Source: Candidatus Poribacteria bacterium
GTDB lineage: Bacteria; Poribacteria; WGA-4E; JAJDTR01
DNA: 64,000 nt
Direction: 5' to 3'
Assembly (NCBI GenBank): GCA_965222225.1
Contig: CBDCTK010000002.1
Location: 5,024,001-5,088,000 of the forward strand
Shown here: positions 21,147 through 64,000 of the stretch, one piece after another
Layout: each line of letters begins with the position of its first letter
Position numbering within the stretch: the stretch's first letter is position 1
The notes under the pieces: generated by a model
What the model was told of the DNA's origin: nothing
Database searches by the model: none
The model's input: only the letters and a program-made list of their open reading frames with translations
Program-made: the position numbers and the translations under genes

Positions 21147-21234
21147 TTTGTAGTAGCGATCAAGGGAGCGAATAGCGACTGCGATAGAGATCCCTTTACT
21201 GCGCGTCTTCTGTAGGAGCGAGCTTTGCTCGTGA
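21147..21234 (+). repeat. GTAG-type REP composite carrying one 36-bp GATC element (21158-21193)
   Basis: TTTGTAGTAGC-[GATCAAGGGAGCGAATAGCGACTGCGATAGAGATCC]-...TGTAGGAGCGAGCTTTGCTCG; inverted homolog at 47865-47981. Confidence 0.8.
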
Positions 21235-26605: not shown

Positions 26606-26893
26606 GGGATCTCTATCGCACTCACTATAGGATTTACTATCGCCTTCGTTATCCACTCAGTTGATCGTTCGTTTGATCTCGCGCTGGGGGGCTGATGTAA
26701 ATAACTCGCTGGCGCTATACACCTGAAGATCTCTATCGCACGGGATTGTCTATCACCCTCCCTATCCGGTCGGTTGATCGTCGCTGGCGCTTTCAAAGGC
26801 TGGTAGGATCTCTATGGGATTTCTATCGCACTCGTTATCCACTCGTTTGATCGCTCATTATTCATTCGCTTGATCGCAGTGCGCACCCTACAA
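26606..26893 (-). repeat. Mosaic of REP-like hairpins and nested 36-38-bp GATC elements
   Basis: Full copies at 26630-26666, 26742-26779 and 26816-26852, each with adjacent partial copies; ends in the REP half GCAGTGCGCACCCTACAA. Confidence 0.8.
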
Positions 26894-29488: not shown

Positions 29489-29685
29489 GATAACTTTGAC
29501 GTGGTTGGTGATTGAGGATTGATGGTTGGTAAATGGTGGGCTGTAACTGTCGAGAAAAGATAATAGCAGACTTACTCAAATGCGTCAATCCGAAATAATA
29601 TGTCAACACTTGAATCTTGACAGTGAAGTGTCAGACACGTATAATTCGCAGAGGTTTACAGCGAGAGTCCTCAAGGAGGATTGAT

Positions 29686-30765: not shown

Positions 30766-30876
30766 ATGACAGCCGCAAGCACGAGATTCCAACGGGCATC
30801 AGCCGGGACAATAGCGTTAATTATCTTTGTTATCATGTTGGTGGCACTAATGTTCGGGAGCGGTTTCGCAAATTGA
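30766..30876 (+). CDS. 36-aa hydrophobic peptide (MTAASTRFQRASAGTIALIIFVIMLVALMFGSGFAN)
   Basis: GGAAGG RBS, one TM-like stretch; the stop lies inside the start of the duplicated leader. Confidence 0.5.
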   Translation: MTAASTRFQRASAGTIALIIFVIMLVALMFGSGFAN

Positions 30877-31003
30877 GTTTCTGCGGAAAACCCCCCTCTA
30901 TTTGCGAAAGAATTGCCTGAAATGGGAGTTGAAACGAGACAAATGAAGGTATTCTGTTTCAGAGTCAAATCACGGAATGTAGATGCCAAGCGATCTTAGA
31001 TCG
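30862..31003 (+). promoter_or_regulatory. CRISPR leader-like sequence, copy 1 (142 bp)
   Basis: Near-identical to 34685-34826; distal inverted repeat TTTCGCAAAT(30864)...ATTTGCGAAA(30900); abuts the 37-bp repeat. Confidence 0.7.
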
Positions 31004-31040
31004 GTTGCAGCCTATGCCCCGATGAAAAGGGGACTGAAAG
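31004..31040 (+). CRISPR. Solitary 37-bp CRISPR-type repeat, variant A
   Basis: GTTGCAGCCTATGCCCCGATGAAAAGGGGACTGAAAG: GTT start, GAAAG end, CCCC/GGGG stem; no second repeat at spacer distance. Confidence 0.75.
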
Positions 31041-31150
31041 TCTATCACCAACAGGGCAAACCCCAGTTGCCTGTTCATTTGAGTGCCACGGTCGATTGTC
31101 AATTCTTCTGCGGAAGGTATAATGAATCAACTTTTTCTATGGAGGGAATA

Positions 31151-32006: not shown

Positions 32007-32396
32007 ATGGAAGAATGGATTAAGGTTATCGCTCCGCTGATTGGTATTGCCGGTCTGTGGTGGAAACTTACTACTTCAATGGCGACGAAAGCTGAATTGA
32101 ATGCTATGAGGTCGGACATGTCGGACATGAAAAGCGAACTCCGGGCTGAAATAGCTGAGGTTAAGGCAGACCTCAAACAAGATATAGCCGAGGTGAAATC
32201 GGACATGGCAGCCCTGAAAACGGAGTTGAAATCTGAAATAGCCGAGGTAAAATCAGACATAACGGACCTGAAAGCAGACCTCAAAGTGGAAAACACTGAG
32301 CTCCGAGCGGACATCAGGGAGATTCGGCAACTGCTCTACAAGAATGTTGTCGATACGGGAAGCAAGGGTGATAACAAAGACGTGGACAGGAATTGA
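32007..32396 (+). CDS. Membrane-anchored coiled-coil repeat protein
   Basis: GAGGTG RBS; N-terminal TM; ATKAEL followed by repeats of E/DIAEVKS/AD; ends IRQLLYKNV. Confidence 0.75.
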   Translation: MEEWIKVIAPLIGIAGLWWKLTTSMATKAELNAMRSDMSDMKSELRAEIAEVKADLKQDIAEVKSDMAALKTELKSEIAEVKSDITDLKADLKVENTELRADIREIRQLLYKNVVDTGSKGDNKDVDRN

Positions 32397-34488: not shown

Positions 34489-34699
34489 ATGACCAACCGC
34501 GTGGACAGAAATTGAAGTCCAGCCGATTGACCACCATATAGCGACGCGGGATGTTGTGGTTAGGCTTTACTCGATGGACGATAGCGGGGAAGTGTGTTGC
34601 GACGTTAAGACCTTGGAATGCCGGAACTGGTTGGAATCGGAATGCGTTCGTTTGGCACAAAGGTACGTAAACGAGGAATTGAAAGGTTTCGCAAATTGA
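34489..34699 (+). pseudogene. Second copy of the small 32368-32574 gene; start codon out of frame by 1 nt
   Basis: WTEIEVQPIDHHIATRDVVVRLYSMDDSGEV...NWLESECVRLAQRYVNEELKGFAN*; ends inside leader copy 2. Confidence 0.55.
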
Positions 34700-34826
34700 T
34701 GTTTTGCGGAAAACCCCCCTCTATTTGCGAAAGAATTGCCTGAAATGGGAGTTGAAACGAGACAAATGAAGGTATTCTGTTTCAGAGTCAAATCACGGAA
34801 TGTAGATGCCAGGCGATCTTAGGTCG
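34685..34826 (+). promoter_or_regulatory. CRISPR leader-like sequence, copy 2 (142 bp)
   Basis: Direct repeat of 30862-31003 with few differences. Confidence 0.7.
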
Positions 34827-34863
34827 GTTGCAGTCTATGCCCCGATGAAAAGGGGACTGAAAG
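34827..34863 (+). CRISPR. 37-bp CRISPR-type repeat, variant A
   Basis: GTTGCAGTCTATGCCCCGATGAAAAGGGGACTGAAAG. Confidence 0.78.
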
Positions 34864-34968: not shown

Positions 34969-35511
34969 ATGAATAAAGGAATCAGACTCCAGAACGTGCT
35001 TCGACGCCTGCTCGTGGTAATACTCGGATTGCTCGTATGGGTTCTCGGAGTGGTTGTGGCGATCTGTGTTTTGATGCTCATTGGAAAGTATGCCTTCATG
35101 CCGATCTATACCGCAGTGAGCCAGCGCGTCACCCCACCGAATTATCAAGAAGAATGGTCTGGTCGGTGGACGGTAGGCATCAACAAACTCACAACATGGC
35201 ACTTCCGCCGTGATGGGACATGGACAGTCTCACCTACGAACCCCTTCATCATATCTGAAGAAGGCACGTATTCAGTCACCGACACCTCCTTCGTGCTTAC
35301 CGCTGGCGTCGGCAGTTCGAATGTTGTTAGAGGAACTTGGAACACAATTGCGGACAAACTTGTCCTGTACATAGAGTCTACCTCGTCTTTCCCTTTTAAT
35401 CGAGAAGCTCTTGTGTTCGACAAATATATTGAATCAATCGAAGAAAGAAAACAGCGGATAGGGCAGGAAGGCGGGGTAATGTCGCCGCCGCCGAAGCTAG
35501 GTTCTCAATGA
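34969..35511 (+). CDS. Membrane-anchored hypothetical protein (beta-barrel/lipocalin-like) between repeats
   Basis: AAGGAG RBS; N-terminal TM; WSGRW, GTYSV and GTW motifs; TGA stop lies within a half repeat. Confidence 0.7.
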   Translation: MNKGIRLQNVLRRLLVVILGLLVWVLGVVVAICVLMLIGKYAFMPIYTAVSQRVTPPNYQEEWSGRWTVGINKLTTWHFRRDGTWTVSPTNPFIISEEGTYSVTDTSFVLTAGVGSSNVVRGTWNTIADKLVLYIESTSSFPFNREALVFDKYIESIEERKQRIGQEGGVMSPPPKLGSQ

Positions 35512-35565
35512 AAAGCGGACTGAAATGCGTTGCAGTCTATGCCCCGATGAAAAGGGGACTAAAAG
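35508..35565 (+). CRISPR. Half repeat (variant B, 35508-35525) followed after 3 nt by a full repeat (variant A, 35529-35565)
   Basis: ATGAAAAGCGGACTGAAA-TGC-GTTGCAGTCTATGCCCCGATGAAAAGGGGACTAAAAG. Confidence 0.75.
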
Positions 35566-35566
35566 A

Positions 35567-35797
35567 ATGAAAGCCCCCACCCGCGAACGCATCAAAACCG
35601 GATTCAAGGTACTGGCAGTAGCCGTCGCCGTCTATGTCGTCATGGTCTGCGCCGGATACATCGCGCTGCTCAGAGCACCCATGCTCGCCGTCGCCAGCGT
35701 GTGGATTATATCCTTCATCACCGGATACATCGTTGAACATCAGAGTTGCATTCACTGGCGCGATGAAAAGGGGACTGATCGGACGGTTGGTATATGA
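35567..35797 (+). CDS. Small two-TM membrane protein between repeats
   Basis: ATG 1 nt after the repeat; two hydrophobic helices; the 3' end reads through the next repeat. Confidence 0.55.
   Translation: MKAPTRERIKTGFKVLAVAVAVYVVMVCAGYIALLRAPMLAVASVWIISFITGYIVEHQSCIHWRDEKGTDRTVGI
35745..35781 (+). CRISPR. Degenerate terminal repeat
   Basis: GTTGCATTCACTGGCGCGATGAAAAGGGGACTGATCG. Confidence 0.65.
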
Positions 35798-35862
35798 CGG
35801 TGCTTTAGCCCTAAAGTGTGTTTCGGCAAGAGGCAGTTTTCAAATCGAAAGGAGAAGTTTTT

Positions 35863-38800
35863 TTGAATGGGAAGATTTTTTCGACACCTATTGCGCTAGC
35901 ACTCTGTACAGCCCTAATATGTGTTCCTATGGCATATGCCGAAGAGAAGGAAAAACAACGGGTTCAACTGAGAGCAGGAGCGGCCTTGCACCGAATCAAA
36001 TCCTATTCAGAAACCCCTGTCCGTGCACGATGGCATCGGCACCGGGGGACAGTCCGCAGTCTTTACAATTTGGCCCTGCCTGTCCCGATAGGAACACTAG
36101 AAACATCAATGCGTCAATGCCTTGACGACTACCGTGACCTTTTTGCGATGACCGATCCGAGCATTGAACTGCGTGTCACGGATATCCAAAGCAGCTTAAC
36201 GGGCAGACATGTTCGATTCCATCAATACTACAACGGTATCGAAGTTTATGGTGCGACAATCTCCCTCCATACCAACCGTTCTGGGCAGATACGGGTCATC
36301 CACAGCAACTACTTCCCACAAATCAATATCAGTACAGTGGCATCGCTCACCCCGGAACAGGCGATCGGCATTGCTATTGCCGATGCCCGTGCATTTGATT
36401 TGCGCAAGCCGTCGCTTGCCAGCTTGGTAATTTTCCCGAATCGTGATGTGGGACAGATAGGTGACTATGCCGATGTGTATCGCCTCGCTTACCGCGTAAA
36501 TTTACATTCCCGTCAACCTCTGGCAAGTTGGGAGTATATCATTGATGCCAACGCGGGTGAACCGTTGCACCGACGGAACCTACTTAGGTCTGCTGACGGA
36601 CGGGGGCGTGTTTTTAACCCGAATCCCGTGGTAGCCCTTAAAGATTTTATGCTCGTGGATCAGGACGATTCTGCCGACGCAATACCAGAAGCAGCGTACA
36701 CGGATGTGATTCTGTCTGAGTTGGACGGGAGTGGTTTTCTTGATGGACCTTACGTGAGTACAAAATTGACCGAAAATCGTGCCAACGAGCCGACGCTGGT
36801 GTTCAACTACTTCCGAGATGACCCCCGATTTGAGGAGGTGATGGTTTATTATCACGTAGATACAGTCGGGCGTTATGTGAAAGGGCTCGGTTTCGATTTC
36901 GTGGACAATTGGCAGATTCCTGCGAATGTACATTTTGGTATGACAAGGGCTGGTTTCTACGACGATAGCGACGGCTCGATTAATTTCGGAGATGCCGGTG
37001 TCGATGTTGCCGAAGATGCCGAAGTGATTGTCCACGAATATGGCCACGCGATCCTTGATCGACAAGTTCCTGACATTAACAAAGGAGAAGGTGGTGCGAT
37101 ACATGAAGGGTTTAGTGATTTTCTCGCAGCCAGTTTTTTCAGCGCCGTAAGCGATGGTTTTAGTGACACGCTCGTTTTTGAATGGACTGGTTCAGAAGAC
37201 CCTGAGGTTGCCACTCGTCCCGTAAATGGTAACAAACGCTATCCCGAAGACATTGTAGGTGACCCACACGCCGATGGGGAGATTTGGTCGGCAGCACTAT
37301 GGGAGATTTTTGAGGCGATTGGACGCGATGCGTCGGTCCGTTTGGTTGTCGAGAGCCATTTCTTCCTCTCGCCCGACGCGGAATTCGTCGATGGGGCATC
37401 GGCAATTCTTATGGCGGACCAAGAACTGAATGGCGGCGTAAATTTGGACCTCATCTTGGGGATTATGGAGAACCGGGGATTCTTTACACGCCCCAAATTG
37501 GCACTTGATGCCTTTGAGGAGAACGATACAGCGGAGACCGCAGCCATGGTCAAACTCCCGTATGTCAACGAAGAACTGTCGGTCCATACAGCGGACAATG
37601 ATGATTACTATAAATTCCGTTTAGATGAGACAATGCAGGTCGGGTTTGGACTTGATTTTCAACCCATCTACGGGGAGTTGATGCTAACATTGACGGGCCC
37701 CAATAGTATCAAGCTTGTTACCTTTGAAACGAAGGATGTCACATCGCTTGAATTAGTGCCGGGCGATTATCTCGTTACGGTTTCTGGCATTAATGGTGCA
37801 ACCAACGATTATAAACTAGCACTCATCATGGACAATCACGGCGATACGCCTGACACAGCGACACCTGTGTCGATCGGCGACACGATAGAGAGTTTCATTG
37901 ACTTCAACGGAGATACGGATTTCTTCGTATTTGAAGGAGAGAATGGGCAGCGCATCGACATCACTGTTACGACTAAGAACTCCGACCTTGACTCTCTGCT
38001 CGTTATCTATGGCCCAGATGGCGATCTCTTTGCTAAAAGTGACGATGTCTTGCCGACCACCGGTCCGGAGCCTGAACTTAATCCGCGTGGTATTGATTCC
38101 CGTGTGAATGAAGAGTTACCAGCCGATGGAACGTACCTGCTCGCTGTCAGCAACATTGCACTTCCCAATCTTAATGTTCCCTTCGGCGGTCTGAACTACT
38201 CTTACACGCTGACAATCGGTGGGAAAACCGATGACCATGCAGCCTGCGGTAGTGGTGAGGAAACGCCGTTGACTTTCGATGAACCTGTAACAGGTGCCAT
38301 TACTCTTACCGGCGATCCTGCATCTCGTGATCCTCATGACTCGGACGGTTTCCGCTTTGAAGCGTCAGAGGGCACTGTCATTGCCCTGCGCGTTGAGGTA
38401 GAAATGCCTAAACGAGAGGTAATATTCATGGTGACCCAACTTAGTCTTTTGGATGCGTCTGGGGAAACGTTGGTATCTATTCAGGGCACTCCCAATGGCT
38501 TAGAGGTGCGGATTGATGGATTTCTCATCCCTGCCGATGGTGTGTATTGTGTTGATGTTGCCGGTTTCATAGGAGGCGCGGTCGGTTCCACTTATACCTA
38601 TGCGCTGACGTTATCCGAGGGCGAACTTCCCGAAGATGACCACGAGGGCTTAAGAGGGAATCCGACTCCGTTAACGGTGGGGGAACCTGTCGAGGGAGCC
38701 ATCAGTTTTGCCGGAGATGCCGATGCGTTCCAGTTTACTGCTACAGCAGGACAGATCATTACGTTAAAGGTGGGCGGGCAACCCGCCAATCCGTTCTTCA

Positions 38801-39864
38801 ATTTAATTTTGAGTCTGTATAATAGCGATTTGCAGCTTGTAGCAGAGACTCCGCTCTTTGTACCAGGTTTTGATTCAATGCTAGAAGGGATTGAAATTCC
38901 TGTGGACGGACCTTACTATGCCGAAATTAGAGATACTGCCGGGGGACGTGGGGTGGATTTTATCTACACACTGACCCTAACAATCGAAGCAGGAGACGGT
39001 ACGGGTAAATTTCCCCCTTATGATGTCAACCAAGATGGCAAGGTGGACATATTTGATCTCGTGCTTGTCGGTCAACATTTCGGCGAAGAATTTATAAACG
39101 CCGCGCCAACCGCGGATTTTGGGCGATACCGCTCGGCATCGCCCGAAGCGGAGCTGAGTCTCCTCATGACCCCAAGTGTGACGGATACACGCCAATTGAC
39201 CGTCTCAATCCACACCACAGCGGTTGACGACCTTTACGGTTACCATTTCTCGATCCAGTACGATCCGGCGTTATTAGAACTCCTTACTGCCTTTCCAAGC
39301 CCCGTTTTAGATGCTGCACTACACCAAAGTTACTGGCATGTCTCCCAGCAAGGGACACAACTGGAACTCACACAGACGCGCCAGGGAACGCTGGGAGGTG
39401 TGGCGATAGAGGGGGCACTAGCTACACTCGTTTTTCATGTTAAAAAGACGGGCCCCCCAGCATCACAACTTCCTATCCAACTCGTTGACCTCCAACTGGC
39501 GGATTCGCTGACTAGAGCTATTCCGGTGAAAATGGTTGATGAGCAAGTTTCAATGACAGAGCTATTCCCTGAACAACCGATGCTGTTGCAAAATTATCCG
39601 AACCCGTTTAACCCAGAAACATGGATTCCGTATCAACTCTCTACTGATTCAGAGGTGATGATCTCAATTTACGATACAAACGGTGCGCGTGTCCGTCGGT
39701 TCAACCTCGGTTATCAGCACGTTGGGACATACACTACTCGCGGTAGGGCGGTCTACTGGGATGGGGAAGACATGTATGGTGAGCCGATTGCAAGCGGCTT
39801 ATATTTCTATCAGATTCGGGCGGGGGATTATGCTCAAGTGCGACGGATGGTAATCCTTAAATAG
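35863..39864 (+). CDS. Secreted M36/M4-type metallopeptidase with FTP propeptide, PPC domains, dockerin/cohesin-like and FlgD/T9SS-like C-terminus
   Basis: HVRFHQYYNGIEVYG, VIVHEYGH, AIHEGFSD, PHADGEIW; repeated PPC domains; DVNQDGKVDIFD; NYPNPFNPETWIPYQL. Start placed at the TTG after a GGAG RBS. Confidence 0.88.
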   Translation: MNGKIFSTPIALALCTALICVPMAYAEEKEKQRVQLRAGAALHRIKSYSETPVRARWHRHRGTVRSLYNLALPVPIGTLETSMRQCLDDYRDLFAMTDPSIELRVTDIQSSLTGRHVRFHQYYNGIEVYGATISLHTNRSGQIRVIHSNYFPQINISTVASLTPEQAIGIAIADARAFDLRKPSLASLVIFPNRDVGQIGDYADVYRLAYRVNLHSRQPLASWEYIIDANAGEPLHRRNLLRSADGRGRVFNPNPVVALKDFMLVDQDDSADAIPEAAYTDVILSELDGSGFLDGPYVSTKLTENRANEPTLVFNYFRDDPRFEEVMVYYHVDTVGRYVKGLGFDFVDNWQIPANVHFGMTRAGFYDDSDGSINFGDAGVDVAEDAEVIVHEYGHAILDRQVPDINKGEGGAIHEGFSDFLAASFFSAVSDGFSDTLVFEWTGSEDPEVATRPVNGNKRYPEDIVGDPHADGEIWSAALWEIFEAIGRDASVRLVVESHFFLSPDAEFVDGASAILMADQELNGGVNLDLILGIMENRGFFTRPKLALDAFEENDTAETAAMVKLPYVNEELSVHTADNDDYYKFRLDETMQVGFGLDFQPIYGELMLTLTGPNSIKLVTFETKDVTSLELVPGDYLVTVSGINGATNDYKLALIMDNHGDTPDTATPVSIGDTIESFIDFNGDTDFFVFEGENGQRIDITVTTKNSDLDSLLVIYGPDGDLFAKSDDVLPTTGPEPELNPRGIDSRVNEELPADGTYLLAVSNIALPNLNVPFGGLNYSYTLTIGGKTDDHAACGSGEETPLTFDEPVTGAITLTGDPASRDPHDSDGFRFEASEGTVIALRVEVEMPKREVIFMVTQLSLLDASGETLVSIQGTPNGLEVRIDGFLIPADGVYCVDVAGFIGGAVGSTYTYALTLSEGELPEDDHEGLRGNPTPLTVGEPVEGAISFAGDADAFQFTATAGQIITLKVGGQPANPFFNLILSLYNSDLQLVAETPLFVPGFDSMLEGIEIPVDGPYYAEIRDTAGGRGVDFIYTLTLTIEAGDGTGKFPPYDVNQDGKVDIFDLVLVGQHFGEEFINAAPTADFGRYRSASPEAELSLLMTPSVTDTRQLTVSIHTTAVDDLYGYHFSIQYDPALLELLTAFPSPVLDAALHQSYWHVSQQGTQLELTQTRQGTLGGVAIEGALATLVFHVKKTGPPASQLPIQLVDLQLADSLTRAIPVKMVDEQVSMTELFPEQPMLLQNYPNPFNPETWIPYQLSTDSEVMISIYDTNGARVRRFNLGYQHVGTYTTRGRAVYWDGEDMYGEPIASGLYFYQIRAGDYAQVRRMVILK

Positions 39865-42166: not shown

Positions 42167-42500
42167 GAGCCTGTCTGAAAAATGGTGGCAAAGCTATTTT
42201 CGATCGTTTTAGTGCCATGTATCTGTGGGATCCCTATCGCACGGGATTTTCTATCGCGCGCGCTATTCGCTTGCTTGATCGTTATCCACTCGTTTAATCC
42301 CCGCTGGAGCTTTGATTTTGTGGTGAATCCCAGTTACTATACACCTAGCGCTCCGCTGAGGCCTAGGCGTGCAGGGGTTCGGTGCTTCTATACATCTTTG
42401 AAGATTCCATGTGCCATTTGAGGATTACCAAGGGATTTCTACTGCGCTCACTAGAAGATCCCTATCGTGGTCGCTATTCGCTTCCTTGATCTTTCGCTTG
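42167..42500 (-). repeat. MITE-like end + REP mosaic with nested GATC elements
   Basis: GAGCCTGTCTGAAAA end; full elements at 42243-42280 and 42457-42491, each flanked by the two halves of another copy. Confidence 0.75.
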
Positions 42501-42635: not shown

Positions 42636-43721
42636 ATGGCAACGGCAAATGGGAAGCCGGGCTTCATTCAGGCGGGTTGGCCTGTGATTGATTGTGACCT
42701 CCACAACCGATTACCGTCACTCGAAATGCTCTACCCGTACCTGCCAGACTACTGGGTAGATCATTGCAGGGATTCGGGCTTCTATGGGCCTGATGCAAAT
42801 GATTATCCGCTTGGCGCACCGACCTCAACGCGACCCGGAATTACGGAGCCTTCAGAAGACCGCCCCGCATCAGATTTGGCTCTCCTACGCGAACATGCCC
42901 TAGACGCCTGGGACGTAGATTGTGGCATACTTACCTGCGCATATCGCGTACAGAGCGTACACAATGAAGACCTCGCAGCAGCGCTTGCCTCTGCGGTCAA
43001 TGATTGGCAGATTGAACATTGGCTAAATCCTGAGCCGCGGCTCAAGGCTTCTCTGATTGTACCGAGCCAGAATCCGGAGCTGGCAGCGCGAGAAATCGAT
43101 CGGTTGGGCAATCACCCGGGCTTTGTGCAGGTGATGCTGCCGGTGCGCTCGCAGGCGCCCTACGGCAACAGACGTTACCATCCTATTTATGCCGCCGCTT
43201 GTAGGCATGACCTTGTGGTCGGCATCCATTACGGCGGCGCACCCGGTTTGCCTCCAACCTCCGTTGGTTGGCCCTCAACCTATCTGGAAGAATATGTGGG
43301 CATGTCACAGGTGTTTCAAGCGCAGGTGCTCAGTTTGGTGTCGGAGGGAGCTTTTGACCAGTTCCCCGATTTGCGCGTGGCGTTGATTGAGGGAGGCTTC
43401 ACATGGATGCCGTCGCTAATGTGGCGGTTTGACAAGGACTGGCGCGGCTTGCGACGGTTGACGCCGTGGGTCAAACGACTGCCATCCGAATATATCCGTG
43501 AACACATCCGCCTGACACTCCAGCCAATTGATTCGCCTCCAACCGCGGAACAGTTGCTTCAGATTATCGGGCAGCTCGATTCGGAGGACCTATTGATGTT
43601 CTCGACAGACTACCCTCATTGGCACTTTGACGCTCCTGAAGAGGCCTTTCCGTCGAAGATACCCAAGACATTGGCTCGCAAGATTCTATCTGAAAATGCG
43701 AGGGAATTTTACCGGCTTTGA
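42636..43721 (+). CDS. Amidohydrolase_2-fold protein (possible dinuclear oxygenase subunit)
   Basis: IDCDLH, AVNDWQIEHWL, GIH, IEGGF, FSTDYPHW. Confidence 0.88.
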   Translation: MATANGKPGFIQAGWPVIDCDLHNRLPSLEMLYPYLPDYWVDHCRDSGFYGPDANDYPLGAPTSTRPGITEPSEDRPASDLALLREHALDAWDVDCGILTCAYRVQSVHNEDLAAALASAVNDWQIEHWLNPEPRLKASLIVPSQNPELAAREIDRLGNHPGFVQVMLPVRSQAPYGNRRYHPIYAAACRHDLVVGIHYGGAPGLPPTSVGWPSTYLEEYVGMSQVFQAQVLSLVSEGAFDQFPDLRVALIEGGFTWMPSLMWRFDKDWRGLRRLTPWVKRLPSEYIREHIRLTLQPIDSPPTAEQLLQIIGQLDSEDLLMFSTDYPHWHFDAPEEAFPSKIPKTLARKILSENAREFYRL

Positions 43722-43832
43722 AAGCACTAAAGAGAAGTGACGCCGTTGCGGTTGTTAAGGTGAATCTGGTTAAGCATCTCAAATTAGGGTTTTTGTGGTT
43801 TGTTGATTTTTTTGCTGGGCAGGTATGTGGTT

Positions 43833-44578
43833 ATGAATCAGGAATTTGAAAAGAGTCCGAAACTTCAGAAGTGGCTGCATTGGATGGAGACGATTCGTAA
43901 CGAGATTTCGGGGCTCCTTCGCGACGAAAGCATGTTTTTGGAAATCCAGGACATTATCCGTGAGAATCCACGGATGCGCAAACCTAATGTTTTCTATGGC
44001 TATCTTCGAAGGACATACCTTTCTCATGCACTAGCAGGATTACGTCGGCAAATCAAACCGCATAAAGATAGCATATCCTTAGTGGGACTGCTTGAGGAGT
44101 TTGCAAAGAACCCCGAAGAATTGTCTTTTAGGTATTATTGCTCCATCCTGTCTGAACCTGCTGCCGGCCAAGGGAGTCTATGACCAAAGAAGATTTCAAA
44201 CAGTATGCAGACCCTAATGAACAGCATGTATGTCCAAAGATGATTGAGGCCGATTTGGGGAGTTTCAAATTTGCAATAGGAGTTGCTGAGGAGTATGTTG
44301 ATAAACGTATTGCGCATTGGGATAAGAGCGAGCCAGAACTCGTACCAACTTCCAGCGAAACCAGCCAGTGCTTTTATTTGCTCGAAATGGCGTACGTTAA
44401 ATACCATCTACTGTTTTATGCGAAAAGGCTCGACACGTTGACGCCAATCTATCAACACAACTGGAAGGATATTTTCCTTGAACCGTGGATAAAAACTGGA
44501 TTTGGGAGTGCAAAAGGACGCATTCATGTAGCTGAAGATTTTGACGCTGAATTACCTGAGTTCAGTGAGGACATATAA
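43833..44578 (+). pseudogene. AbiU2/HEPN-like protein split into two overlapping ORFs
   Basis: ORFs 43833-44183 and 44180-44578; LRRQ..KDSISL in the first half and YVDKRIAH in the second. Confidence 0.5.
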
Positions 44579-44599
44579 CGACTAACAACTGCTGAGAAA

Positions 44600-45691
44600 A
44601 TGGACACTGATGCCGTACAATTGAATACAACGCCAAAACGACGAAAGTTGCCAATCATCGATTGCGATGTACATAACACCCTAGCGTCAGATAAGGTGCT
44701 GTATCCCTATTTGTCAAAGCGGTGGCTTAGACATCACGAAATGCTGGAGACGCCCGATAAAGTCGGGGGATATATTGCTCGCGGTATGCCGTACGGCGCC
44801 CGGAACGACGCATGGCCGCCCTCCGGGGAACGTCCGGGCTCCGACTTAAACTTTCTTCGGGAACAGTTGCTAGACCTCTGGGATATTGAGGTCGGAATCC
44901 TGAATTGTCTTACCGCCGTGCCCGACATGCCCAATCTGGAGTACGCCGCAGCGTTCGCACGGGCGGTGAATGACTGGCAGATTGATAAGTGGCTGGAACC
45001 CGAACCGCGCCTGAGGGCGTCGATTACTGTTGTCTGCGATGATGGTGAATTGGCGGCTGAGGAAATCAACCGACTAGGCGATAACCCCGGCTTTGTGCAG
45101 GTGTTGGTACTTGCGCGTACAATGGAGCCCTTGGGGCGCCGGAAATACTGGAAGATGTATGAGGCTGCGGGAGGTCACAATCTTCCGATTGGCATCCATT
45201 TCACCGGCGTTGGAGCGGGGCCAATCACTGCTGTCGGCAGTCCTTCACACTACATCGAAGACCATACGGGGATGACGCAGGCGTTTCAGACGCAGGTCAC
45301 GAGTTTGGTGTGCGAGGGCGTTTTCGAGCACTTCCCAACGCTCAAGATTGTTTTGATTGAAGCTGGCTTTGGTTGGTTGCCGCCACTGATGTGGCGACTT
45401 GACCGCGCCTGGAAGAAGTTGAGTGATGAAGTGCCATATTTAAGGCGGTTGCCATCGGAGTATATTCATGACCATTTCTGGATGACAACGCAGCCAGTGG
45501 AGGAACCGTCCAAACAGGAGTATTTTCAGCAGTTGATCGCTAACATCAATGCAGATGAAAAACTGATGTTTGCTACTGACTACCCGCATTGGGATTTTGA
45601 TTCACCGGAGTATGCCATTCCCAAGAACCTATCGCCGGATCTAAGATGGAAAATCATGGCGGAGAATGCTCGAAACTTCTATCGCTTTTGA
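44600..45691 (+). CDS. Amidohydrolase_2-fold protein (possible dinuclear oxygenase subunit)
   Basis: IDCDVH, HYIEDH, FATDYPHWDFD. Confidence 0.88.
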   Translation: MDTDAVQLNTTPKRRKLPIIDCDVHNTLASDKVLYPYLSKRWLRHHEMLETPDKVGGYIARGMPYGARNDAWPPSGERPGSDLNFLREQLLDLWDIEVGILNCLTAVPDMPNLEYAAAFARAVNDWQIDKWLEPEPRLRASITVVCDDGELAAEEINRLGDNPGFVQVLVLARTMEPLGRRKYWKMYEAAGGHNLPIGIHFTGVGAGPITAVGSPSHYIEDHTGMTQAFQTQVTSLVCEGVFEHFPTLKIVLIEAGFGWLPPLMWRLDRAWKKLSDEVPYLRRLPSEYIHDHFWMTTQPVEEPSKQEYFQQLIANINADEKLMFATDYPHWDFDSPEYAIPKNLSPDLRWKIMAENARNFYRF

Positions 45692-45827
45692 TGACAATTA
45701 TTTCCCATAATATCAGTACATCGCTCAACATGAATTGGCACACAGAGACCAGATTAATGAGTTACTCGGCAGAAACTTTTCTCGTTTAAGTAGGTTGATT
45801 GAAGGTTGAACCAAGGAGGACAGAAAG

Positions 45828-46916
45828 ATGGCGGCAACTGAGACACACACGAATCCATCGGCAACCCGACGGAAAATGCCCGTAATTGATTGTGACATTC
45901 ACAATGCCGTACCTTCGCACAAGGCGCTGCACCCGTATATGTCAGAGCGTTGGCGAAGGCATCTTGAAATGGTGGGGACCCCCGCTCGAAATGGCTCTTA
46001 TATCCCGCGTGGCGTGCCATACGCGGCTAGAAAGGATGCCTGGCCCCCTTCCGGCAAAGCGCCCGGTTCGGACCTGAAGTTCATGCAAGATCAGCTGCTT
46101 GACCACTGGAACATCGAATATGGGGTTCTAAACTGTTTAATCTTCCAAGATATGCGCAGCGTGGAATTCAATGCCGCGCTGTCGCGCGCAGTTAACGACT
46201 GGCAAATCGAGGAATGGATCAAGCCCGACCCAAGGCTGAGAGCGTCAATCTTGGTTCCGTTTGAAGATGGCGACCTGGCCGCGGATGAAATTGATCGGCT
46301 TGGAGCTCACCCGGGGTTTGTGCAAGTCCTACTCGTCGCTCGCACGATGGAACCCCTTGGAAGGCGCCGCTATTGGAAGATTTACGAGGCGGCGGTGCGA
46401 CATGACCTTACGATTGGGATTCACTTCGGCGGCCTCGGTGTTGGTTCAATCACCTCTGCAGGCAAACCTTCACACTACATTGAAGACCATGCGGGGATGT
46501 GCCAAGTGTTTCAGACGCAAGTGACCAGTTTAGTGTGCGAGGGGGTCTTCGAACACTTTCCTACGCTTAAGGTGGTGCTAATCGAAGGAGGATTTGCTTG
46601 GTTGCCACCACTGATGTGGCGGCTTGAGCGCTCTTGGAAAATGCTGAGGGAGGAAGTTCCGTATTTGAAACGCTCCCCGTCAGAATATATTCGTGAGCAT
46701 TTCTGGCTAAGCACGCAGCCGATGGAAGAACCACCCAAGCAGGAATATTTTCAGCAGTTGCTTGAGCATATCAACGCCGATGAAAAATTGATGTTCGCAA
46801 CAGACTATCCACACTGGGACTTTGATTCGCCGGGCCATGCGCTTCCCAAGAACCTAAACCCCAATTTGAGGCGGCGAATCATGGCTGAGAATGCTCGTGC
46901 CCTGTACCAATTCTAA
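45828..46916 (+). CDS. Amidohydrolase_2-fold protein, close paralog of 44600-45691
   Basis: IDCDIH, HYIEDH, FATDYPHWDFD; AAGGAGG RBS. Confidence 0.88.
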   Translation: MAATETHTNPSATRRKMPVIDCDIHNAVPSHKALHPYMSERWRRHLEMVGTPARNGSYIPRGVPYAARKDAWPPSGKAPGSDLKFMQDQLLDHWNIEYGVLNCLIFQDMRSVEFNAALSRAVNDWQIEEWIKPDPRLRASILVPFEDGDLAADEIDRLGAHPGFVQVLLVARTMEPLGRRRYWKIYEAAVRHDLTIGIHFGGLGVGSITSAGKPSHYIEDHAGMCQVFQTQVTSLVCEGVFEHFPTLKVVLIEGGFAWLPPLMWRLERSWKMLREEVPYLKRSPSEYIREHFWLSTQPMEEPPKQEYFQQLLEHINADEKLMFATDYPHWDFDSPGHALPKNLNPNLRRRIMAENARALYQF

Positions 46917-47800: not shown

Positions 47801-47981
47801 TGTAGGAGATCAAGCGAACGAATAGTGAGTGCGATAGAGATCTTCTCGAGGTCGCGACTTCTTATCGCGAGCAGAGCTCGCTCCTACAGGAGACGCACAA
47901 TAAAGGGATTTCTATCGTCCTCGCTGTTCGCTCGGTTAATCTATTCGCTCCATTGATCGTTCGGTTGATCGCTACTACAAA
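47801..47981. repeat. Inverted REP pair with GATC elements (47808-47843 on +; 47905-47970 on -, stuttered)
   Basis: TGTAGGA-[GATCAAGCGAACGAATAGTGAGTGCGATAGAGATC]; GCGAGCAGAGCTCGCTCCTACA; homologous to 21147-21234. Confidence 0.8.
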
Positions 47982-49559: not shown

Positions 49560-49805
49560 GAACCTGTTTGAATAATCGATAGGAAAGCCATTTTTGGTCA
49601 TTTGTGGGAAGTTCTTCCATGTCTTAATTGTTGCCTGCTACGTACCTGTCGCCCCGCTGGGGCTTAGGTGCACGGGGTTTTGGCGTTTCTATACACCTTC
49701 ATGGATCTCTATCGCAGTCGCTATTCGCTCCCTTGATCCCACTCTGGGGCTTTTAGAGGCTGGTGCGCAGTGCGCACCCTACAAATGTACTTTTCAAACA
49801 GGCTC
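49560..49805. mobile_element. MITE-like element (246 bp) carrying REP hairpins and one GATC element (49703-49738)
   Basis: TIRs GAACCTGTTTGAA / TTCAAACAGGCTC, flanked by TAA on both sides (possible 3-bp target duplication). Confidence 0.65.
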
Positions 49806-61830: not shown

Positions 61831-62577
61831 TTGAGAACGGCTAATCCTGCCCTTAACGAAAATACATTCACGAGAGTTGAACGCACGTATGCGGATTCCG
61901 ATGTAATGTCGATTCAGGGTACGGTAAACAAGATAGGAATCTTGCTTGTGCTGACGATAGCCACTGCAACTTGGACGTGGACATTCGCAGGAGGGGAATC
62001 CCAAGCAGTGTACCCGTTGTTAACCTTCGGTGGAATCGGTGGTTTGATTGTCGCCATCGTTACCGTGTTTAAACAGACGTGGTCCCCTGTCACCGCGCCA
62101 ATTTACTGTTTGCTAAAAGGGCTCGTTCTCGGTGGCATTTCGGCAATCTTCGAAGCGATGTTCCCTGGAATCGTCTTTCAAGCGGTGTGTTTAACCTTCG
62201 GCACACTCTTTTGTCTGCTCATTGCGTACAGAACCGGACTCATCAAAGCGACCGAGAATTTCAAACTAGGCGTGGCTGCCGCGACCGGCGCGATTATGCT
62301 TGTTTATGCGGTGACATTCCTTCTTGGTCTCTTCGGCATCGGTCAACTGGATTTTATCCACGGTTCCGGGCTGATTGGTATCGGTTTTAGTCTGTTCGTC
62401 GTTGTCATCGCGGCGCTGAATCTCGTGCTAGACTTCGATTTCATTGAAAACGGCGCGGCACGCGGTGCACCGAAATATATGGAGTGGTACGCAGCCTTCG
62501 GCTTGATGGTCACTCTGATCTGGCTGTATATTGAGATTTTGCGGCTGTTGGCGAAACTCGCGGCAAATCGGGATTAA
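61831..62577 (+). CDS. Bax inhibitor-1/YccA family membrane protein
   Basis: NLVLDFD, AFGLMVTLIWLYIEILRLL. Confidence 0.9.
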   Translation: MRTANPALNENTFTRVERTYADSDVMSIQGTVNKIGILLVLTIATATWTWTFAGGESQAVYPLLTFGGIGGLIVAIVTVFKQTWSPVTAPIYCLLKGLVLGGISAIFEAMFPGIVFQAVCLTFGTLFCLLIAYRTGLIKATENFKLGVAAATGAIMLVYAVTFLLGLFGIGQLDFIHGSGLIGIGFSLFVVVIAALNLVLDFDFIENGAARGAPKYMEWYAAFGLMVTLIWLYIEILRLLAKLAANRD

Positions 62578-62786
62578 GAGTGGGGAGGTGTTACAATTAC
62601 GACTTGTGCTAGTTGATATAGGCTATGCGAAAACGAAGTCTTTGATTTCGATGAACTGATAGAGCGTTGGGATGACTGGAAGCGTTACAGACATCCCAGT
62701 TTTTTATCGATATTTCCTCTCCCTAATATATAGCACGATTGGAATTTTCCATCTTACAAAAAAAAGACTGAGCATGCCCACTCATT

Positions 62787-62823
62787 GTTGTAGTCTATGA
62801 CGCGATAAAAAACAGACTAAAAA
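62787..62823 (+). CRISPR. Degenerate 37-bp repeat, variant B
   Basis: GTTGTAGTCTATGACGCGATAAAAAACAGACTAAAAA. Confidence 0.65.
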
Positions 62824-62843
62824 TTGGAATAAGGGTAAACATA

Positions 62844-63131
62844 ATGGAAAATACGACAGTAATGCTTGTGGCGATTCTAGTAGCGGTTTGGGGGTTGATA
62901 ATTGGCATCATTGCTCATTAGTGGTATATCACCAAGGCTTTGAACTCAGAGGCATTGAACTCAAAGATAAACCGAGATGACTTGAAACGCCTAAGAGATG
63001 ATTTCAACCGCTTGAGAAATGACATGAGTGTTCGCCAGTTGCTGTTTCAGCATGTGAGTGACCACGAGAAGCACGCCAACGCTGGCCAGGTGCGCAAGCA
63101 TGGACGACGAACTAATGATAGAAAAGGGTGA
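62844..63131 (+). pseudogene. TM + coiled-coil protein with in-frame TAG (62919-62921), similar in build to 32007-32396
   Basis: MENTTVMLVAILVAVWGLIIGIIAH*WYITKALNSEALNSK...VRQLLFQHV. Confidence 0.55.
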
Positions 63132-63194
63132 GATGTACCGATGGAGCATTGTGGGGTAAAAGTTAGTCGCATAGGGTTCTATTTCAACGGGGCG

Positions 63195-63231
63195 GTTGCA
63201 GTCTATGACGCGATGAAAAGCGGACTGAAAA
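63195..63231 (+). CRISPR. 37-bp repeat, variant B
   Basis: GTTGCAGTCTATGACGCGATGAAAAGCGGACTGAAAA. Confidence 0.75.
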
Positions 63232-63243
63232 AAAGGATCCGAT

Positions 63244-63858
63244 ATGTCGTTCAAATCGATGTTGAATGAAATTGGACAGGAGTTGCCAGCACTAAATCTG
63301 ACTGGAGTACTCGTTGTTTTCGGCATTGGTTTTTCAAGGTTAATCTATAAATTAGTGAGATTAGCGGAACATAAATGCTTCGCGAAACGTTTTCTCGCAA
63401 AATATACTCAAATGCTAAATGATGAGCAGACCGCCGCCGAATCGTATGAATGGTTACTTGACCATCTATCCCAGATAAAAAGGGAAATGAGAGCACACGG
63501 AGATAGTAACTATGCTCACATAAGTCACATCATATCAACTTTACATGATCGCCCTCCGGTACTCGCTCCCAATTTGGATGATGTTTGCGTAGATTTAAGG
63601 AAATATATCGGTACACTTTCTTATTCGATCCGAATACAGTGCAAACATGTTTGGCGTTTTCCTTTGTGGCCAATTGTATTGCCAATGCAAGTCGTAGAGC
63701 TGGTTGTGGTTGATATAATACTGCGATTTAGCAAAACCGCTGACTTTAATTCGCACAGTAGCCATCCCGTGATCTGGACAATCAAGATAATATTTGCCGT
63801 GTATACCTTTATCGCTGGCTGGGATGCAGTCGTGAAAAAAATTAAAGAGATTTTCTGA
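63244..63858 (+). CDS. Hypothetical membrane protein between repeats
   Basis: 204 aa, TM segments at both ends; AAGGA RBS right after the repeat. Confidence 0.7.
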   Translation: MSFKSMLNEIGQELPALNLTGVLVVFGIGFSRLIYKLVRLAEHKCFAKRFLAKYTQMLNDEQTAAESYEWLLDHLSQIKREMRAHGDSNYAHISHIISTLHDRPPVLAPNLDDVCVDLRKYIGTLSYSIRIQCKHVWRFPLWPIVLPMQVVELVVVDIILRFSKTADFNSHSSHPVIWTIKIIFAVYTFIAGWDAVVKKIKEIF

Positions 63859-63892
63859 GTTGTAAACCTGTCGTTTCTTGTCGTTTACACTG

Positions 63893-63929
63893 GTTATAGT
63901 CTATGTCTTGATGAAAAGGGGGCGTCGGT
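63893..63929 (+). CRISPR. Degenerate repeat, variant A-like
   Basis: GTTATAGTCTATGTCTTGATGAAAAGGGGGCG; the 3' end is lost. Confidence 0.6.
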
Positions 63930-64000
63930 GCCATCATTCTACCTGCCAAGTTGTACGAACCCGCCATTTTGGATAAACCTCGTTGGCCAATTAGTGACCA

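What the first reader, a model, noticed from the sequence alone, without database searches (positions are those of the whole stretch)
62787..63929. Second repeat-gene-repeat-gene-repeat locus 27 kb away
Seen: repeat (62787) - TM/coiled-coil ORF - repeat (63195) - 204-aa membrane ORF - repeat (63893). Each ORF starts 12-20 nt after a repeat, and the second ends 34 nt before the next repeat. One gene per interval, in the same orientation, at an independent site makes chance decay of a normal array less likely (inference).
Basis: partly seen in the sequence, partly recalled or inferred. Interest (0 to 1): 0.82.

Follow-up and report, generated by a model that had tools for sequence, protein, structure and literature searches.

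The report
Stray CRISPR repeats bracketing small genes
Three worn copies of this sponge bacterium's CRISPR repeat bracket one broken and one intact small membrane-protein gene inside a strain-specific island, most likely a recombination relic rather than a new gene-cassette system, though a working role for the middle repeat is not excluded.

Summary
Three same-strand copies of a 37-nt CRISPR-type repeat sit at 62787, 63195 and 63893 (genome-wide nhmmer E 1e-5, 6e-10, 3e-5). An ORF starts 20 and 12 nt after the first two, and the second ORF ends 34 nt before the third.

Corrections:
- ORF1 carries an in-frame TAG at codon 26.
- Only the middle repeat keeps the hairpin and 3' handle.

The repeat is a true CRISPR repeat. 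It shares its 3' core with the genome's only cas-adjacent array, and it forms a normal 6-repeat array in relative G002.

The locus is the left end of a 5.7-kb island (62599-68342). The island is absent in 3 of 9 same-genus genomes and absent as a joined form in 4 of 4 public runs.

Across the genome, 9 of 14 stray repeats are followed within 120 nt by a sense ORF, against 28% expected. The cargo families, however, mostly occur without repeats, the flanking repeats belong to different subtypes, and no repeat-to-repeat joint was seen.

Best reading (0.5): a decaying mosaic built by recombination at CRISPR repeats within variable defence islands. Cas-dependent RNA processing, or active gene capture, remains possible. 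Verdict: a new variant of stray or orphan repeats, of moderate interest.

The parts
61831..62577 (+). BaxI_1 / YccA-type membrane protein gene. It is the conserved left flank of the island.
   Evidence: Pfam PF12811, E 2.8e-78. Found at 88-95% protein identity in 9 of 9 same-genus genomes.
62599..64000 (.). Left part of a strain-specific 5.74-kb island. It runs on to window-equivalent 68342, beyond the window's end.

Contents in order: repeat, ORF1, repeat, ORF2, repeat, an FRG+TPR gene, a 476-aa orphan gene, and an IS remnant.
   Evidence: Conserved flanks stop about 20-110 nt after the yccA stop, depending on the relative, and resume about 5.7 kb later at the NTP_transferase gene. G001, G005 and G006 have the empty site. 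A joint from L005 598 to 6343 is seen in 4 of 4 runs. Right end and IS.
62787..62823 (+). Repeat 1, a degenerate CRISPR-type repeat. Its hairpin is lost.
   Evidence: nhmmer E 1.3e-5. 86% identical to repeat 2 (family D8). No canonical fold, z -0.8.
62844..63131 (+). ORF1, a membrane-helix plus coiled-coil reading frame broken by an in-frame TAG at 62919-62921. Probably a pseudogene.
   Evidence: Translation. Its middle part also occurs at this site in G003 and G004, without a repeat.
63195..63231 (+). Repeat 2, the only well-kept repeat. It retains the hairpin and the 3' handle region.
   Evidence: nhmmer E 5.5e-10. 4 mismatches to the best copy. Fold -8.7 kcal/mol, z -1.8, the same shape as the intact copies.
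63244..63858 (+). ORF2, an intact 204-aa all-helical membrane protein of unknown family.
   Evidence: 10 full-length homologues at 41-82% identity. No match above the curated cut-off in Pfam, and none in PADLOC or PHROGs. AlphaFold2 pLDDT 66, seven helices. No PDB match at E <= 0.001.
63893..63929 (+). Repeat 3, a degenerate repeat of a different subtype. Its 3' handle is lost.
   Evidence: nhmmer E 2.7e-5, matching model positions 1-32 only. Fold no better than shuffles.
30862..31040 (+). Related locus: a CRISPR leader copy (30862-31003) plus its first repeat (31004-31040), followed by sense ORFs.
   Evidence: 181-nt pair at 97% identity (family D3). 87-90% identical to the leader of the normal array in G002.
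34685..34863 (+). Related locus: a second leader copy plus repeat (34827-34863), followed by a 180-aa membrane-anchored ORF (34969-35511).
35502..35781 (+). Related locus, in order: a half repeat (35502-35525), a full repeat (35529-35565), a 76-aa two-helix ORF starting 1 nt after that repeat, and a repeat of another subtype (35745-35781).

Best explanation
The three elements are genuine but diverged copies of the type I CRISPR repeat of this Candidatus Poribacteria lineage. They do not form a working array and do not define a dedicated cassette system. They are ectopic repeats left inside a strain-specific accessory island that sits between yccA and a convergent sugar-nucleotidyltransferase gene.

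Proposed history (inferred):
- CRISPR arrays and their leader-plus-first-repeat units in this lineage are recombination and insertion hot spots.
- Exchanges between repeats of different arrays use the shared 24-nt 3' core as the patch of homology. They carry along whatever lies beside a repeat.
- The result is mosaics of the form repeat-gene-repeat.
- Recombination between direct repeats keeps orientation, so the genes stay in the sense direction without any selection for it.
- The pieces then decay. At this locus ORF1 is broken, and repeats 1 and 3 have lost the hairpin or the handle.
- Only repeat 2 and the 204-aa membrane-protein gene are intact.

Whether the repeat 2 transcript is still cut by the Cas endonuclease is open.
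For: Shown by tool results:
1. Repeat identity. The genome's only Cas1 locus (Cas3-HD, Cas7/DevR, Cas5-like, Cas1) lies beside an array whose repeat shares positions 14-37 with the window's repeats. The exact window variant forms a normal 6-repeat array with 71-74-nt periods in G002. The repeat family occurs in 17 of 41 related genomes, in arrays of up to about 60 repeats.
2. Island status. The site is empty in G001, G005 and G006, and has other contents in G002, G003, G004, G007 and G009. The joined, empty form is present in 4 of 4 runs at depth 20-34, against 2-15 for the island form.
3. Decay. TAG in ORF1. Repeats 1 and 3 do not fold.
4. Mosaic origin.
   - Repeats 1 and 2 share one stem subtype, and repeat 3 is a decayed copy of another.
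   - In the sister locus a half repeat of one subtype abuts a full repeat of another, and the next repeat is of a third subtype.
   - Four leader-plus-repeat copies at 95-97% identity are scattered in G000. One shares 244 nt with a copy 3.7 Mb away.
5. Cargo genes are not tied to repeats.
   - The TM/coiled-coil family has 8 tblastn hits in G000, none at a repeat hit.
   - The ORF2 family is in 11 of 151 genomes of the order, and only the G000 copy has a repeat upstream.
   - Only 2 of 4 members of the 171-aa family have one.
6. A possible intact counterpart. In G002 the normal array is followed in the sense direction by small membrane/secreted ORFs, half repeats and genes similar to those beside G000's eroded locus at 1.20-1.21 Mb. 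G000 has two similar copies of those genes, so orthology is not settled.
7. The cas-adjacent array itself is full of insertions: MITEs sit inside the repeat loops.
Against: - Sense ORF starts lie close behind stray repeats more often than expected: 9 of 14 within 120 nt against 0.28, and 12 of 14 within 330 nt against 0.48. Recombination with a founder effect can give this, but it is also what a functional 5' element would show.
- The pattern recurs in three genomes with unrelated small membrane or secreted proteins.
- Two paralogues at only 32-37% identity each have a repeat upstream.
- Repeat 2 is far better kept than its neighbours, beside the only intact gene.
- No recombination intermediate or repeat-to-repeat joint was observed. 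Contigs drop rare variants, so this is weak either way.
- The recombination mechanism is inferred, not shown.
Confidence: 0.5

Rival explanations
1. Functional repeat-led genes. The CRISPR repeat has been taken over as a 5' RNA element. Transcripts are made from a leader promoter or by read-through. The system's repeat-cutting nuclease cleaves them at each repeat, giving single-gene mRNAs that begin with the 8-nt handle. Alternatively, Cascade subunits bind the handle next to the ribosome-binding site and hold translation down until the Cas complex is inhibited, a guard logic like CreTA.
For: - ORF starts lie 1-44 nt after 8 of the stray repeats in G000, G002 and G009.
- Sense starts behind repeats are enriched.
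- Four copies carry a complete leader that is 87-90% identical to that of a working-looking array.
- Repeat 2 and the copies at 34827 and 35529 keep the hairpin.
- Many cargo proteins are small membrane proteins.
- Cargo at sister loci includes defence genes: GmrSD and FRG / PDC-S15.
Against: - Distances from repeat to start codon range from 1 to 110 nt, so there is no fixed geometry.
- At the target locus there is no leader, two of three repeats cannot fold, and one gene is broken.
- The families occur mostly without repeats.
- No PF01881 Cas6-type match was found in the genome. The processing enzyme is therefore only presumed to be the Cas5-like protein.
- The RNA-library contigs cover the island at flank-like depth and cannot show ends or strand.
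Confidence: 0.25
2. Active capture. Gene-sized DNA was inserted at leader-proximal repeats by Cas1-Cas2, or by another site-specific activity that recognises the repeat hairpin. The repeats would then work as cassette boundaries in an integron-like way.
For: - The architecture looks like an integron array: short same-strand ORFs, one per interval, each bounded by a recombination-prone hairpin repeat.
- Leader, full repeat, a 665-nt insert, then a full repeat differing at 1 base at 34827/35529 is the footprint that spacer integration would leave.
- Repeats 1 and 2 of the target are near-duplicates.
- MITEs have entered the same loop position of several repeats with a 12-nt duplication, so the loop is a preferred target for some enzyme.
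Against: - Repeats 2 and 3, and 35529 and 35745, are of different subtypes. They are not duplicates made by one integration.
- The target locus has no leader.
- No tyrosine recombinase lies within about 59 kb of the window: 12 PF00589 hits in the genome, the nearest at C2:4964687.
- The repeats lack attC size and structure.
- The island behaves as one unit in 4 of 4 runs.
- The leader-repeat junction occurs in only 2 of 151 genomes of the order.
Confidence: 0.12
3. Mobile-element cargo. The repeats belong to a mobile element and act as decoys or mini-arrays, like RNA anti-CRISPRs or element-borne orphan arrays, that exploit or blunt the host's Cas machinery.
For: - The island is strain-specific and ends in an IS remnant.
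- A sister copy (leader, repeat, one spacer, half repeat) lies about 2.8 to 3.5 kb from a ParB_N gene and a tyrosine integrase.
- Leader-repeat units are 95-97% identical across distant sites.
Against: - No phage or plasmid hallmark gene lies in the target island. PHROGs gives only FRG-domain families of unknown function.
- 0 of 207 sampled spacers from 16 loci match the islands.
- Two of three repeats have lost the structure a decoy would need.
Confidence: 0.08
4. Chance resemblance or assembly artefact.
For: Repeats 1 and 3 are weak on their own.
Against: - Genome-wide E-values are 1e-5 to 6e-10 for three same-strand copies within 1.2 kb.
- Contigs from other studies cover parts of the locus with few differences. 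X3 covers 537-1270 of L005 with 0 differences and 1241-5032 with 16. X5 covers 537-2206 with 4 differences.
Confidence: 0.02

Closest known systems
Standalone repeat units and ectopic or orphan CRISPR repeats (Shmakov et al. 2023, PMC10120712; passages read)
   Same: These are repeat-like sequences outside arrays in CRISPR-positive genomes, often partly degraded. That paper attributes them to the recombinogenic nature of repeats and to dynamic gain and loss of ectopic copies.
   Different: That survey scanned intergenic regions of cas loci and their flanks, and defined mini-arrays by 15-60-bp spacing. Here the copies lie 2.4 Mb from the cas genes and are 408-698 nt apart, with a whole ORF in each interval. 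Elsewhere in this genome complete leaders are attached.
CreTA and regulatory mini-arrays (abstracts seen, PMC8501985; discussion in PMC10120712)
   Same: Degenerate CRISPR repeats beside small toxic or cargo genes, with Cas effectors reused for regulation rather than immunity.
   Different: CreA is a repeat, a roughly 30-40-nt pseudo-spacer and a repeat, whose guide represses a promoter. Here there is no spacer-sized interval and no identified target, and the locus is not in a cas locus.
Integron gene-cassette arrays (recalled knowledge; no paper read)
   Same: Short, mostly promoterless ORFs in one orientation. Each is bounded by a hairpin-forming recombination site, in a strain-variable region.
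   Different: No IntI integrase nearby. The 37-nt repeats have a 4-bp stem, unlike 57-141-nt attC sites. No single-cassette variation was seen.
RNA anti-CRISPRs (Racrs) and element-borne mini-arrays (abstract of PMC10651486 seen)
   Same: Solitary repeat units that mimic host repeats, carried on variable DNA.
   Different: Racrs are non-coding units in phage genomes. Here the repeats bracket protein genes in a chromosomal island with no phage genes, and two of three are structurally dead.
Synthetic Cas6/Csy4-insulated operons (recalled; not searched or read)
   Same: CRISPR repeats placed between genes, so that cleavage yields independent mRNAs.
   Different: That is an engineered design. No natural counterpart was found in my three searches, and processing is not shown here.

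Membership tests
Canonical CRISPR array | Three or more direct repeats of 23-50 nt | tested here: met
   Three 37-nt copies on the same strand. Two are degenerate.
Canonical CRISPR array | Regular spacing by unique spacers of about 25-50 nt | tested here: not met
   The intervals are 371 and 661 nt, and each holds an ORF. Normal arrays of this repeat have 71-76-nt periods.
Canonical CRISPR array | Repeat matches that of a cas-linked array of the lineage | tested here: met
   Shares positions 14-37 with the cas-adjacent array. The same variant forms a 6-repeat array in G002.
Canonical CRISPR array | Leader upstream of the first repeat | tested here: not met
   The 142-nt leader found at 4 other G000 sites is absent upstream of 62787.
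Canonical CRISPR array | Repeat RNA folds into the family's hairpin | tested here: inconclusive
   Kept in repeat 2. Lost in repeat 1 and marginal in repeat 3.
Regulatory mini-array / CreA-like | Two repeat-like units 15-60 bp apart | tested here: not met
   Spacing is 408 and 698 nt start to start.
Regulatory mini-array / CreA-like | Spacer partly complementary to a nearby promoter with a PAM | not tested
   There is no spacer-sized unit to test. Array spacers of G000 hit only themselves in the genome.
Regulatory mini-array / CreA-like | Lies in or beside a cas locus | tested here: not met
   The only Cas1 locus is at C2:2.70 Mb and the target is at C2:5.087 Mb.
Integron cassette array | IntI-type tyrosine recombinase with attI beside the array | tested here: not met
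   12 PF00589 hits in the genome. None lies in the window or the island; the nearest is about 59 kb before the window.
Integron cassette array | attC sites: imperfect inverted repeats of about 57-141 nt | tested here: not met
   37-nt units with a 3-4-bp inner stem. The attC definition is recalled, not taken from a tool.
Integron cassette array | One promoterless ORF per interval, all in one orientation | tested here: met
   ORF1 (broken) and ORF2 are both in the sense direction. The promoter scan is no better than shuffles.
Integron cassette array | Cassettes vary singly between strains | tested here: not met
   Only the whole-island joint was seen in 4 of 4 runs. Contigs may hide rare forms.
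RNA anti-CRISPR (Racr) | Solitary host-like repeat carried by a phage or other mobile element | tested here: inconclusive
   The island is strain-specific with an IS remnant but no phage genes.
RNA anti-CRISPR (Racr) | The RNA binds Cas proteins and inhibits immunity | not testable with these tools
   Needs biochemistry.

The most novel reading that the evidence does not exclude
In this Poribacteria lineage CRISPR repeats, with or without their leader, have become portable gene-expression or gene-capture modules. Small membrane-protein and defence genes are slotted behind repeats, transcribed from CRISPR leaders and released or controlled by the Cas RNA-processing machinery. This would be a natural repeat-punctuated operon or integron-like cassette system built from CRISPR parts. 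The target locus would be an ageing example of it.
Probability: 0.2. Interest if true: 0.85.

Novelty: new variant of a known kind. Interest (0 to 1): 0.45.

Why it matters
Stray CRISPR repeats are usually dismissed as debris or studied only as spacer-sized regulatory mini-arrays. Here whole genes occupy the spacer positions at several sites in one genome and in two relatives. The genes are small membrane proteins, a GmrSD restriction enzyme and an FRG-domain defence candidate, and some sites carry complete leaders.

If this is only recombination debris, it documents how CRISPR repeats act as recombination joints that shuffle defence-island content in sponge symbionts. If the repeats are still processed, it would be a natural case of Cas-dependent control of non-CRISPR genes. 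That can be tested directly with end-resolved RNA data.

Tried and rejected
- **Function of ORF2.** Pfam gave only a sub-threshold VPR hit, E 0.014. PADLOC and PHROGs gave nothing. The ESM Atlas listed only unnamed clusters at low recognition. AlphaFold2 reached pLDDT 66. Foldseek against PDB found 0 matches at E <= 0.001 of 472 listed. No function assigned.
- **Rfam.** 0 matches for the whole window at gathering scores, and 0 for 62500-64000 at E <= 1.
- **Promoter and terminator scans.** Counts are no better than shuffles at either locus. Not used.
- **Spacer targeting.** 207 spacers were taken from 16 loci, which are parts of arrays and not whole arrays. None matched the target island or the sister locus.
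- **JGI metagenome contigs.** No relative of ORF2 and no exact repeat match.
- **Genome collection scan.** Only 2 loci, in G005 and G002.
- **Classical Cas6.** PF01881 was not found in a genome that is 94.9% complete. This does not show absence of a processing enzyme.
- **RNA evidence.** Runs X14 and X15 are RNA libraries kept as contigs. They cover the island at depths similar to the flanks and cannot show transcription, ends or strand. I draw no conclusion on expression.
- **Unresolved loose ends.** One contig in X14 ends its fit at L005 1224, inside repeat 2, and runs on unlike the reference. Extra depth in the 1001-1250 bin in all 4 runs may come from other repeat-bearing loci. Alternative sequence precedes L005 599 in X14 and X15.
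- **Translation from within the repeat.** I considered that the ATG inside the repeat might start translation of the cargo. It is in frame only at 31004 and runs into a stop at 34827, 35529 and 63195 (read). Rejected.
- **Repeat-specific MITEs.** I considered that MITEs target only CRISPR repeats. Window copies at about 26.6 kb and 47.8 kb are not flanked by the loop motif. Rejected as a general rule.
- **Literature.** Three full-text searches listed no paper describing protein genes between CRISPR repeats. I saw listings and abstracts only, plus passages of PMC10120712. Supplements are closed and may hold relevant cases.
Full report
**What is there**

The window is G000:C2:5024001-5088000 of a 5.70-Mb, two-contig genome. 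Same-genus relatives carry the record title 'MAG: Candidatus Poribacteria bacterium'.

Three direct copies of a 37-nt element lie at 62787-62823, 63195-63231 and 63893-63929. A profile built from 13 copies, extracted by coordinates, scores them at E = 1.3e-5, 5.5e-10 and 2.7e-5 in a search of the whole genome. That search gave 40 hits with E < 5.

- ORF1 starts at 62844, 20 nt after repeat 1.
- ORF2 starts at 63244, 12 nt after repeat 2, and its stop ends 34 nt before repeat 3.

- ORF1 has an in-frame TAG at codon 26, directly after its membrane helix.
- Only repeat 2 keeps the family's hairpin and 3' end. Repeat 1 has lost the stem and repeat 3 has lost the last 8 or so bases. Fold z-scores are -1.8 for repeat 2 against -0.8 and +0.1 for repeats 1 and 3.

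**The element is a CRISPR repeat**

The genome has one Cas1 locus. It lies with a Cas3 carrying a C-terminal HD domain, an unassigned 597-aa protein, Cas7/DevR and a weak Cas5-like protein. No PF01881 Cas6 was found.

The array beside that locus (C2:2705500-2707957) has a repeat that shares positions 14-37 with the window's copies and differs in the 5' third. The shared part is the hairpin, the loop and the ...ACTGAAAG end.

The repeat family occurs in 17 of 41 related genomes, with arrays of up to about 60 repeats. The window's own variant forms a normal six-repeat array with 71-74-nt periods in G002.

A 142-nt sequence lies directly upstream of four G000 copies: window 31004 and 34827, and C2:1309692 and 1310446 on the minus strand. 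It is 87-90% identical to the leader of the G002 array. This leader-repeat junction was found in 2 of 151 genomes of the order, four times in G000 and twice in G002. The target locus has no leader.

**The setting is a variable island**

Upstream lies a BaxI_1/YccA gene, conserved in 9 of 9 same-genus genomes. Comparison of 15.7 kb around it in those nine genomes gave the following:

| Genomes | Content downstream of yccA |
|---|---|
| G001, G005, G006 | Empty: yccA is followed after about 20 nt by the convergent NTP_transferase gene |
| G003, G004, G007 | 0.5-0.75 kb holding an intact TM/coiled-coil gene and no repeat; G003 and G004 also hold a fragment of ORF1 |
| G002 | Other inserts |
| G009 | Other inserts |
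| G008 | Rearranged |

The G000 island runs from 62599 to window-equivalent 68342. Its contents, in order:
- repeat 1, ORF1, repeat 2, ORF2, repeat 3;
- an FRG+TPR protein (Pfam E 2.2e-14; PADLOC candidate system PDC-S15, E 1e-20);
- a 476-aa orphan gene;
- an IS remnant of high copy number.

Contigs of four public runs from three studies all contain a joint that skips 5744 nt, L005 598 to 6343. Its depth is 20-34, while the island form lies at depth 2-15. No joint between repeats was listed.

The sister locus at 30.8-35.8 kb also sits between conserved flanks, which end at 30797 and resume at 35783. In the other genomes those flanks are either 4.4-4.8 kb apart with other content (G005, G007) or not adjacent.

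**The wider pattern**

Outside the cas-adjacent array, G000 has 14 full or partial stray repeats in five loci.

| Locus | Position | Content |
|---|---|---|
| I | C2:1.204-1.208 Mb | three weak same-strand repeats; an IS1595 transposase, a GmrSD restriction enzyme (Pfam E 1.8e-34 and 4e-23) and a 162-aa ORF lie behind them |
| II | C2:1.3096-1.3106 Mb | leader-repeat, 171-aa ORF, leader-repeat, one spacer, half repeat; about 2.8 kb from a ParB_N gene and about 3.5 kb from a tyrosine integrase |
| III | C2:3228242 | partial leader, repeat, then 31 nt later an ORF with a signal-peptide-like start |
| IV | window 30.8-35.8 kb | two leader-repeat units, a half repeat beside a full repeat, and a repeat of another subtype, with sense ORFs between |
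| V | window 62.8-63.9 kb | the target locus |

I made a crude gene set of 5716 longest non-overlapping ORFs, covering 87% of the contig. Against 20,000 random intergenic sites with random strand:
- 9 of 14 stray repeats have a sense ORF start within 120 nt downstream, against 0.28 (binomial 0.005);
- 12 of 14 have one within 330 nt, against 0.48 (binomial 0.004).

The 14 sites fall in five loci, so these figures overstate the evidence. In this crude set the site at 31004 is scored as a miss, because the called ORF begins upstream of the repeat.

The same arrangement is seen in G002 (repeat, 39 nt, an 85-aa membrane ORF) and G009 (repeat, 36 nt, a membrane ORF). It is also seen at the trailer end of the normal G002 array, which is followed in the sense direction by small membrane/secreted ORFs and half repeats.

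**Are the genes tied to the repeats? Mostly not**

- **ORF2.** It is a real, narrowly distributed family, with 10 full-length homologues at 41-82% identity. In 151 genomes of the order it occurs in 11, counting G000. Only the G000 copy has a repeat upstream. The broken copies in G005 and G002 have a partial or full repeat 135 nt and 2.1 kb downstream instead.
- **TM/coiled-coil family.** This includes 32007-32396, and ORF1 resembles it in architecture. It has eight tblastn hits in G000, none at a repeat hit. It sits at the yccA site of G003, G004 and G007 without a repeat.
- **171-aa family.** It has four members, and only the two in G000 have an upstream repeat.
- **Recurring set.** The same families recur together around stray repeats in islands of G002 and G005 that lie beside a ruvX-like gene. 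These are TM/coiled-coil with its 3' flank, a 157/180-aa lipoprotein-like protein, a 260/262-aa protein and ORF2. In G000 that site is empty.

**Mosaic signatures**

- Repeats 1 and 2 share one stem subtype and repeat 3 is a decayed copy of another. In locus IV, 35529 and 35745 are of different subtypes, and a half repeat of a third kind lies 3 nt before 35529. Serial duplication of one leader-proximal repeat by Cas1-Cas2 would not give this. Recombination among different arrays through the shared 3' core would.
- Leader-repeat units at distant sites are 95-97% identical. One shares 244 nt, including the 3' flank of the 171-aa gene, with the copy at 30799-31042. Exchange within the genome is therefore recent.
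- The cas-adjacent array shows how insertion-prone these repeats are. MITEs, some in tandem, sit in the loop of at least four repeats, each flanked by a 12-nt duplication of the loop region.

**Reading**

The most economical account is that locus V is a decaying mosaic. Ectopic CRISPR repeats mark old recombination joints in a defence-type variable island. Orientation is uniform because exchange between direct repeats preserves it. I give this 0.5.

A functional reading gets 0.25. In it the repeats serve as Cas-processed or Cas-bound 5' elements of small membrane and defence genes. It explains the closeness of start codons, the complete leaders and the better state of repeat 2. It is weakened by the variable distances (1-110 nt), by the dead repeats beside a dead gene here, and by the many repeat-free family members.

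| Reading | Probability |
|---|---|
| Decaying recombination mosaic | 0.50 |
| Functional repeat-led genes | 0.25 |
| Active capture (Cas1-Cas2 or an integron-like activity) | 0.12 |
| Mobile-element decoy or mini-array | 0.08 |
| Chance or artefact | 0.02 |

The available RNA-library data are contigs only and decide nothing.

**Comparison with what is known**

The nearest described thing is the excess of standalone, partly degraded repeat copies in CRISPR-positive genomes, attributed to the recombinogenic nature of repeats (PMC10120712, passages read). That work defined mini-arrays by 15-60-bp spacing and looked in and around cas loci. Gene-sized intervals far from the cas genes, with leaders attached, fall outside it.

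The locus fails the defining tests for a canonical array (spacing, leader), for a CreA-like mini-array (spacing, location) and for an integron (no IntI, no attC).

My three literature searches (listings and abstracts only) showed no description of protein genes in spacer positions. Supplements were closed.

I file it as a new variant of a known kind, stray or orphan CRISPR repeats, with moderate interest. The bolder reading is worth a direct RNA-end test.

Noticed in passing
window 29617-30687 (+): One reading frame with two in-frame TGA codons. Read with TGA=U it gives a 357-residue tandem peroxiredoxin-like protein with the motif FYPKDFTGGU twice. Each TGA lies in an 83-nt duplicated block (29876 and 30329) and is followed by a short GC-rich inverted repeat. 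This is probably a double selenocysteine protein. The peroxiredoxin and SECIS readings are from recall, not from a family search.
   Followed up: partly
L001 9796-11957 (G000:C2:2705795-2707956): The cas-adjacent CRISPR array is interrupted by MITE-like elements of about 200 nt, some in tandem. They are inserted in the loop of at least four repeats, each flanked by a 12-nt duplication of the loop region.
   Followed up: partly
window 21158-21192, 26600-26880, 42229-42500, 47808-47965, 49703-49784: Copies or fragments of the same MITE family, sharing the terminal inverted repeat. Here they are not next to CRISPR-like sequence.
   Followed up: partly
L003 7899-9884 (G000:C2:1205898-1207883): A weak CRISPR-type repeat lies 44 nt upstream of a GmrSD-type restriction endonuclease gene. 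An identical IS1595 transposase gene occurs both here and beside the leader-repeat locus at C2:1.31 Mb.
   Followed up: partly
L002 6596-11448 (G000:C2:1309595-1314447, minus strand): In order: leader-repeat, 171-aa ORF, leader-repeat, one spacer, half repeat. This lies next to a ParB_N-domain gene and a tyrosine integrase, so it may be an integrated element carrying a mini CRISPR array.
   Followed up: partly
window 42636-46916 (+): Three tandem paralogous ORFs of about 362 aa (42636, 44600, 45828), sharing 300-nt blocks at 60-65% identity. They were not examined.
   Followed up: no
window 35818-39864 (+): A 1348-aa protein with a T9SS C-terminal sorting domain and an M36-like N-terminal region starts directly after the last repeat of the sister locus. 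It is the conserved right flank of that island.
   Followed up: partly
L005 2107-2162 (window-equivalent 64107-64162): RNA-library contigs of two runs carry a 54-nt deletion that removes the listed GTG start of the FRG+TPR gene. Its real start is probably the ATG about 66 nt further on.
   Followed up: no
L001 5090-6500 (G000:C2:2701089-2702499): A 262-aa lipoprotein-like gene on the opposite strand sits inside the cas operon between the Cas5-like gene and cas1. It is flanked by MITE fragments and by two similar short blocks. Its 260-aa homologue in G002 lies beside a stray repeat.
   Followed up: partly
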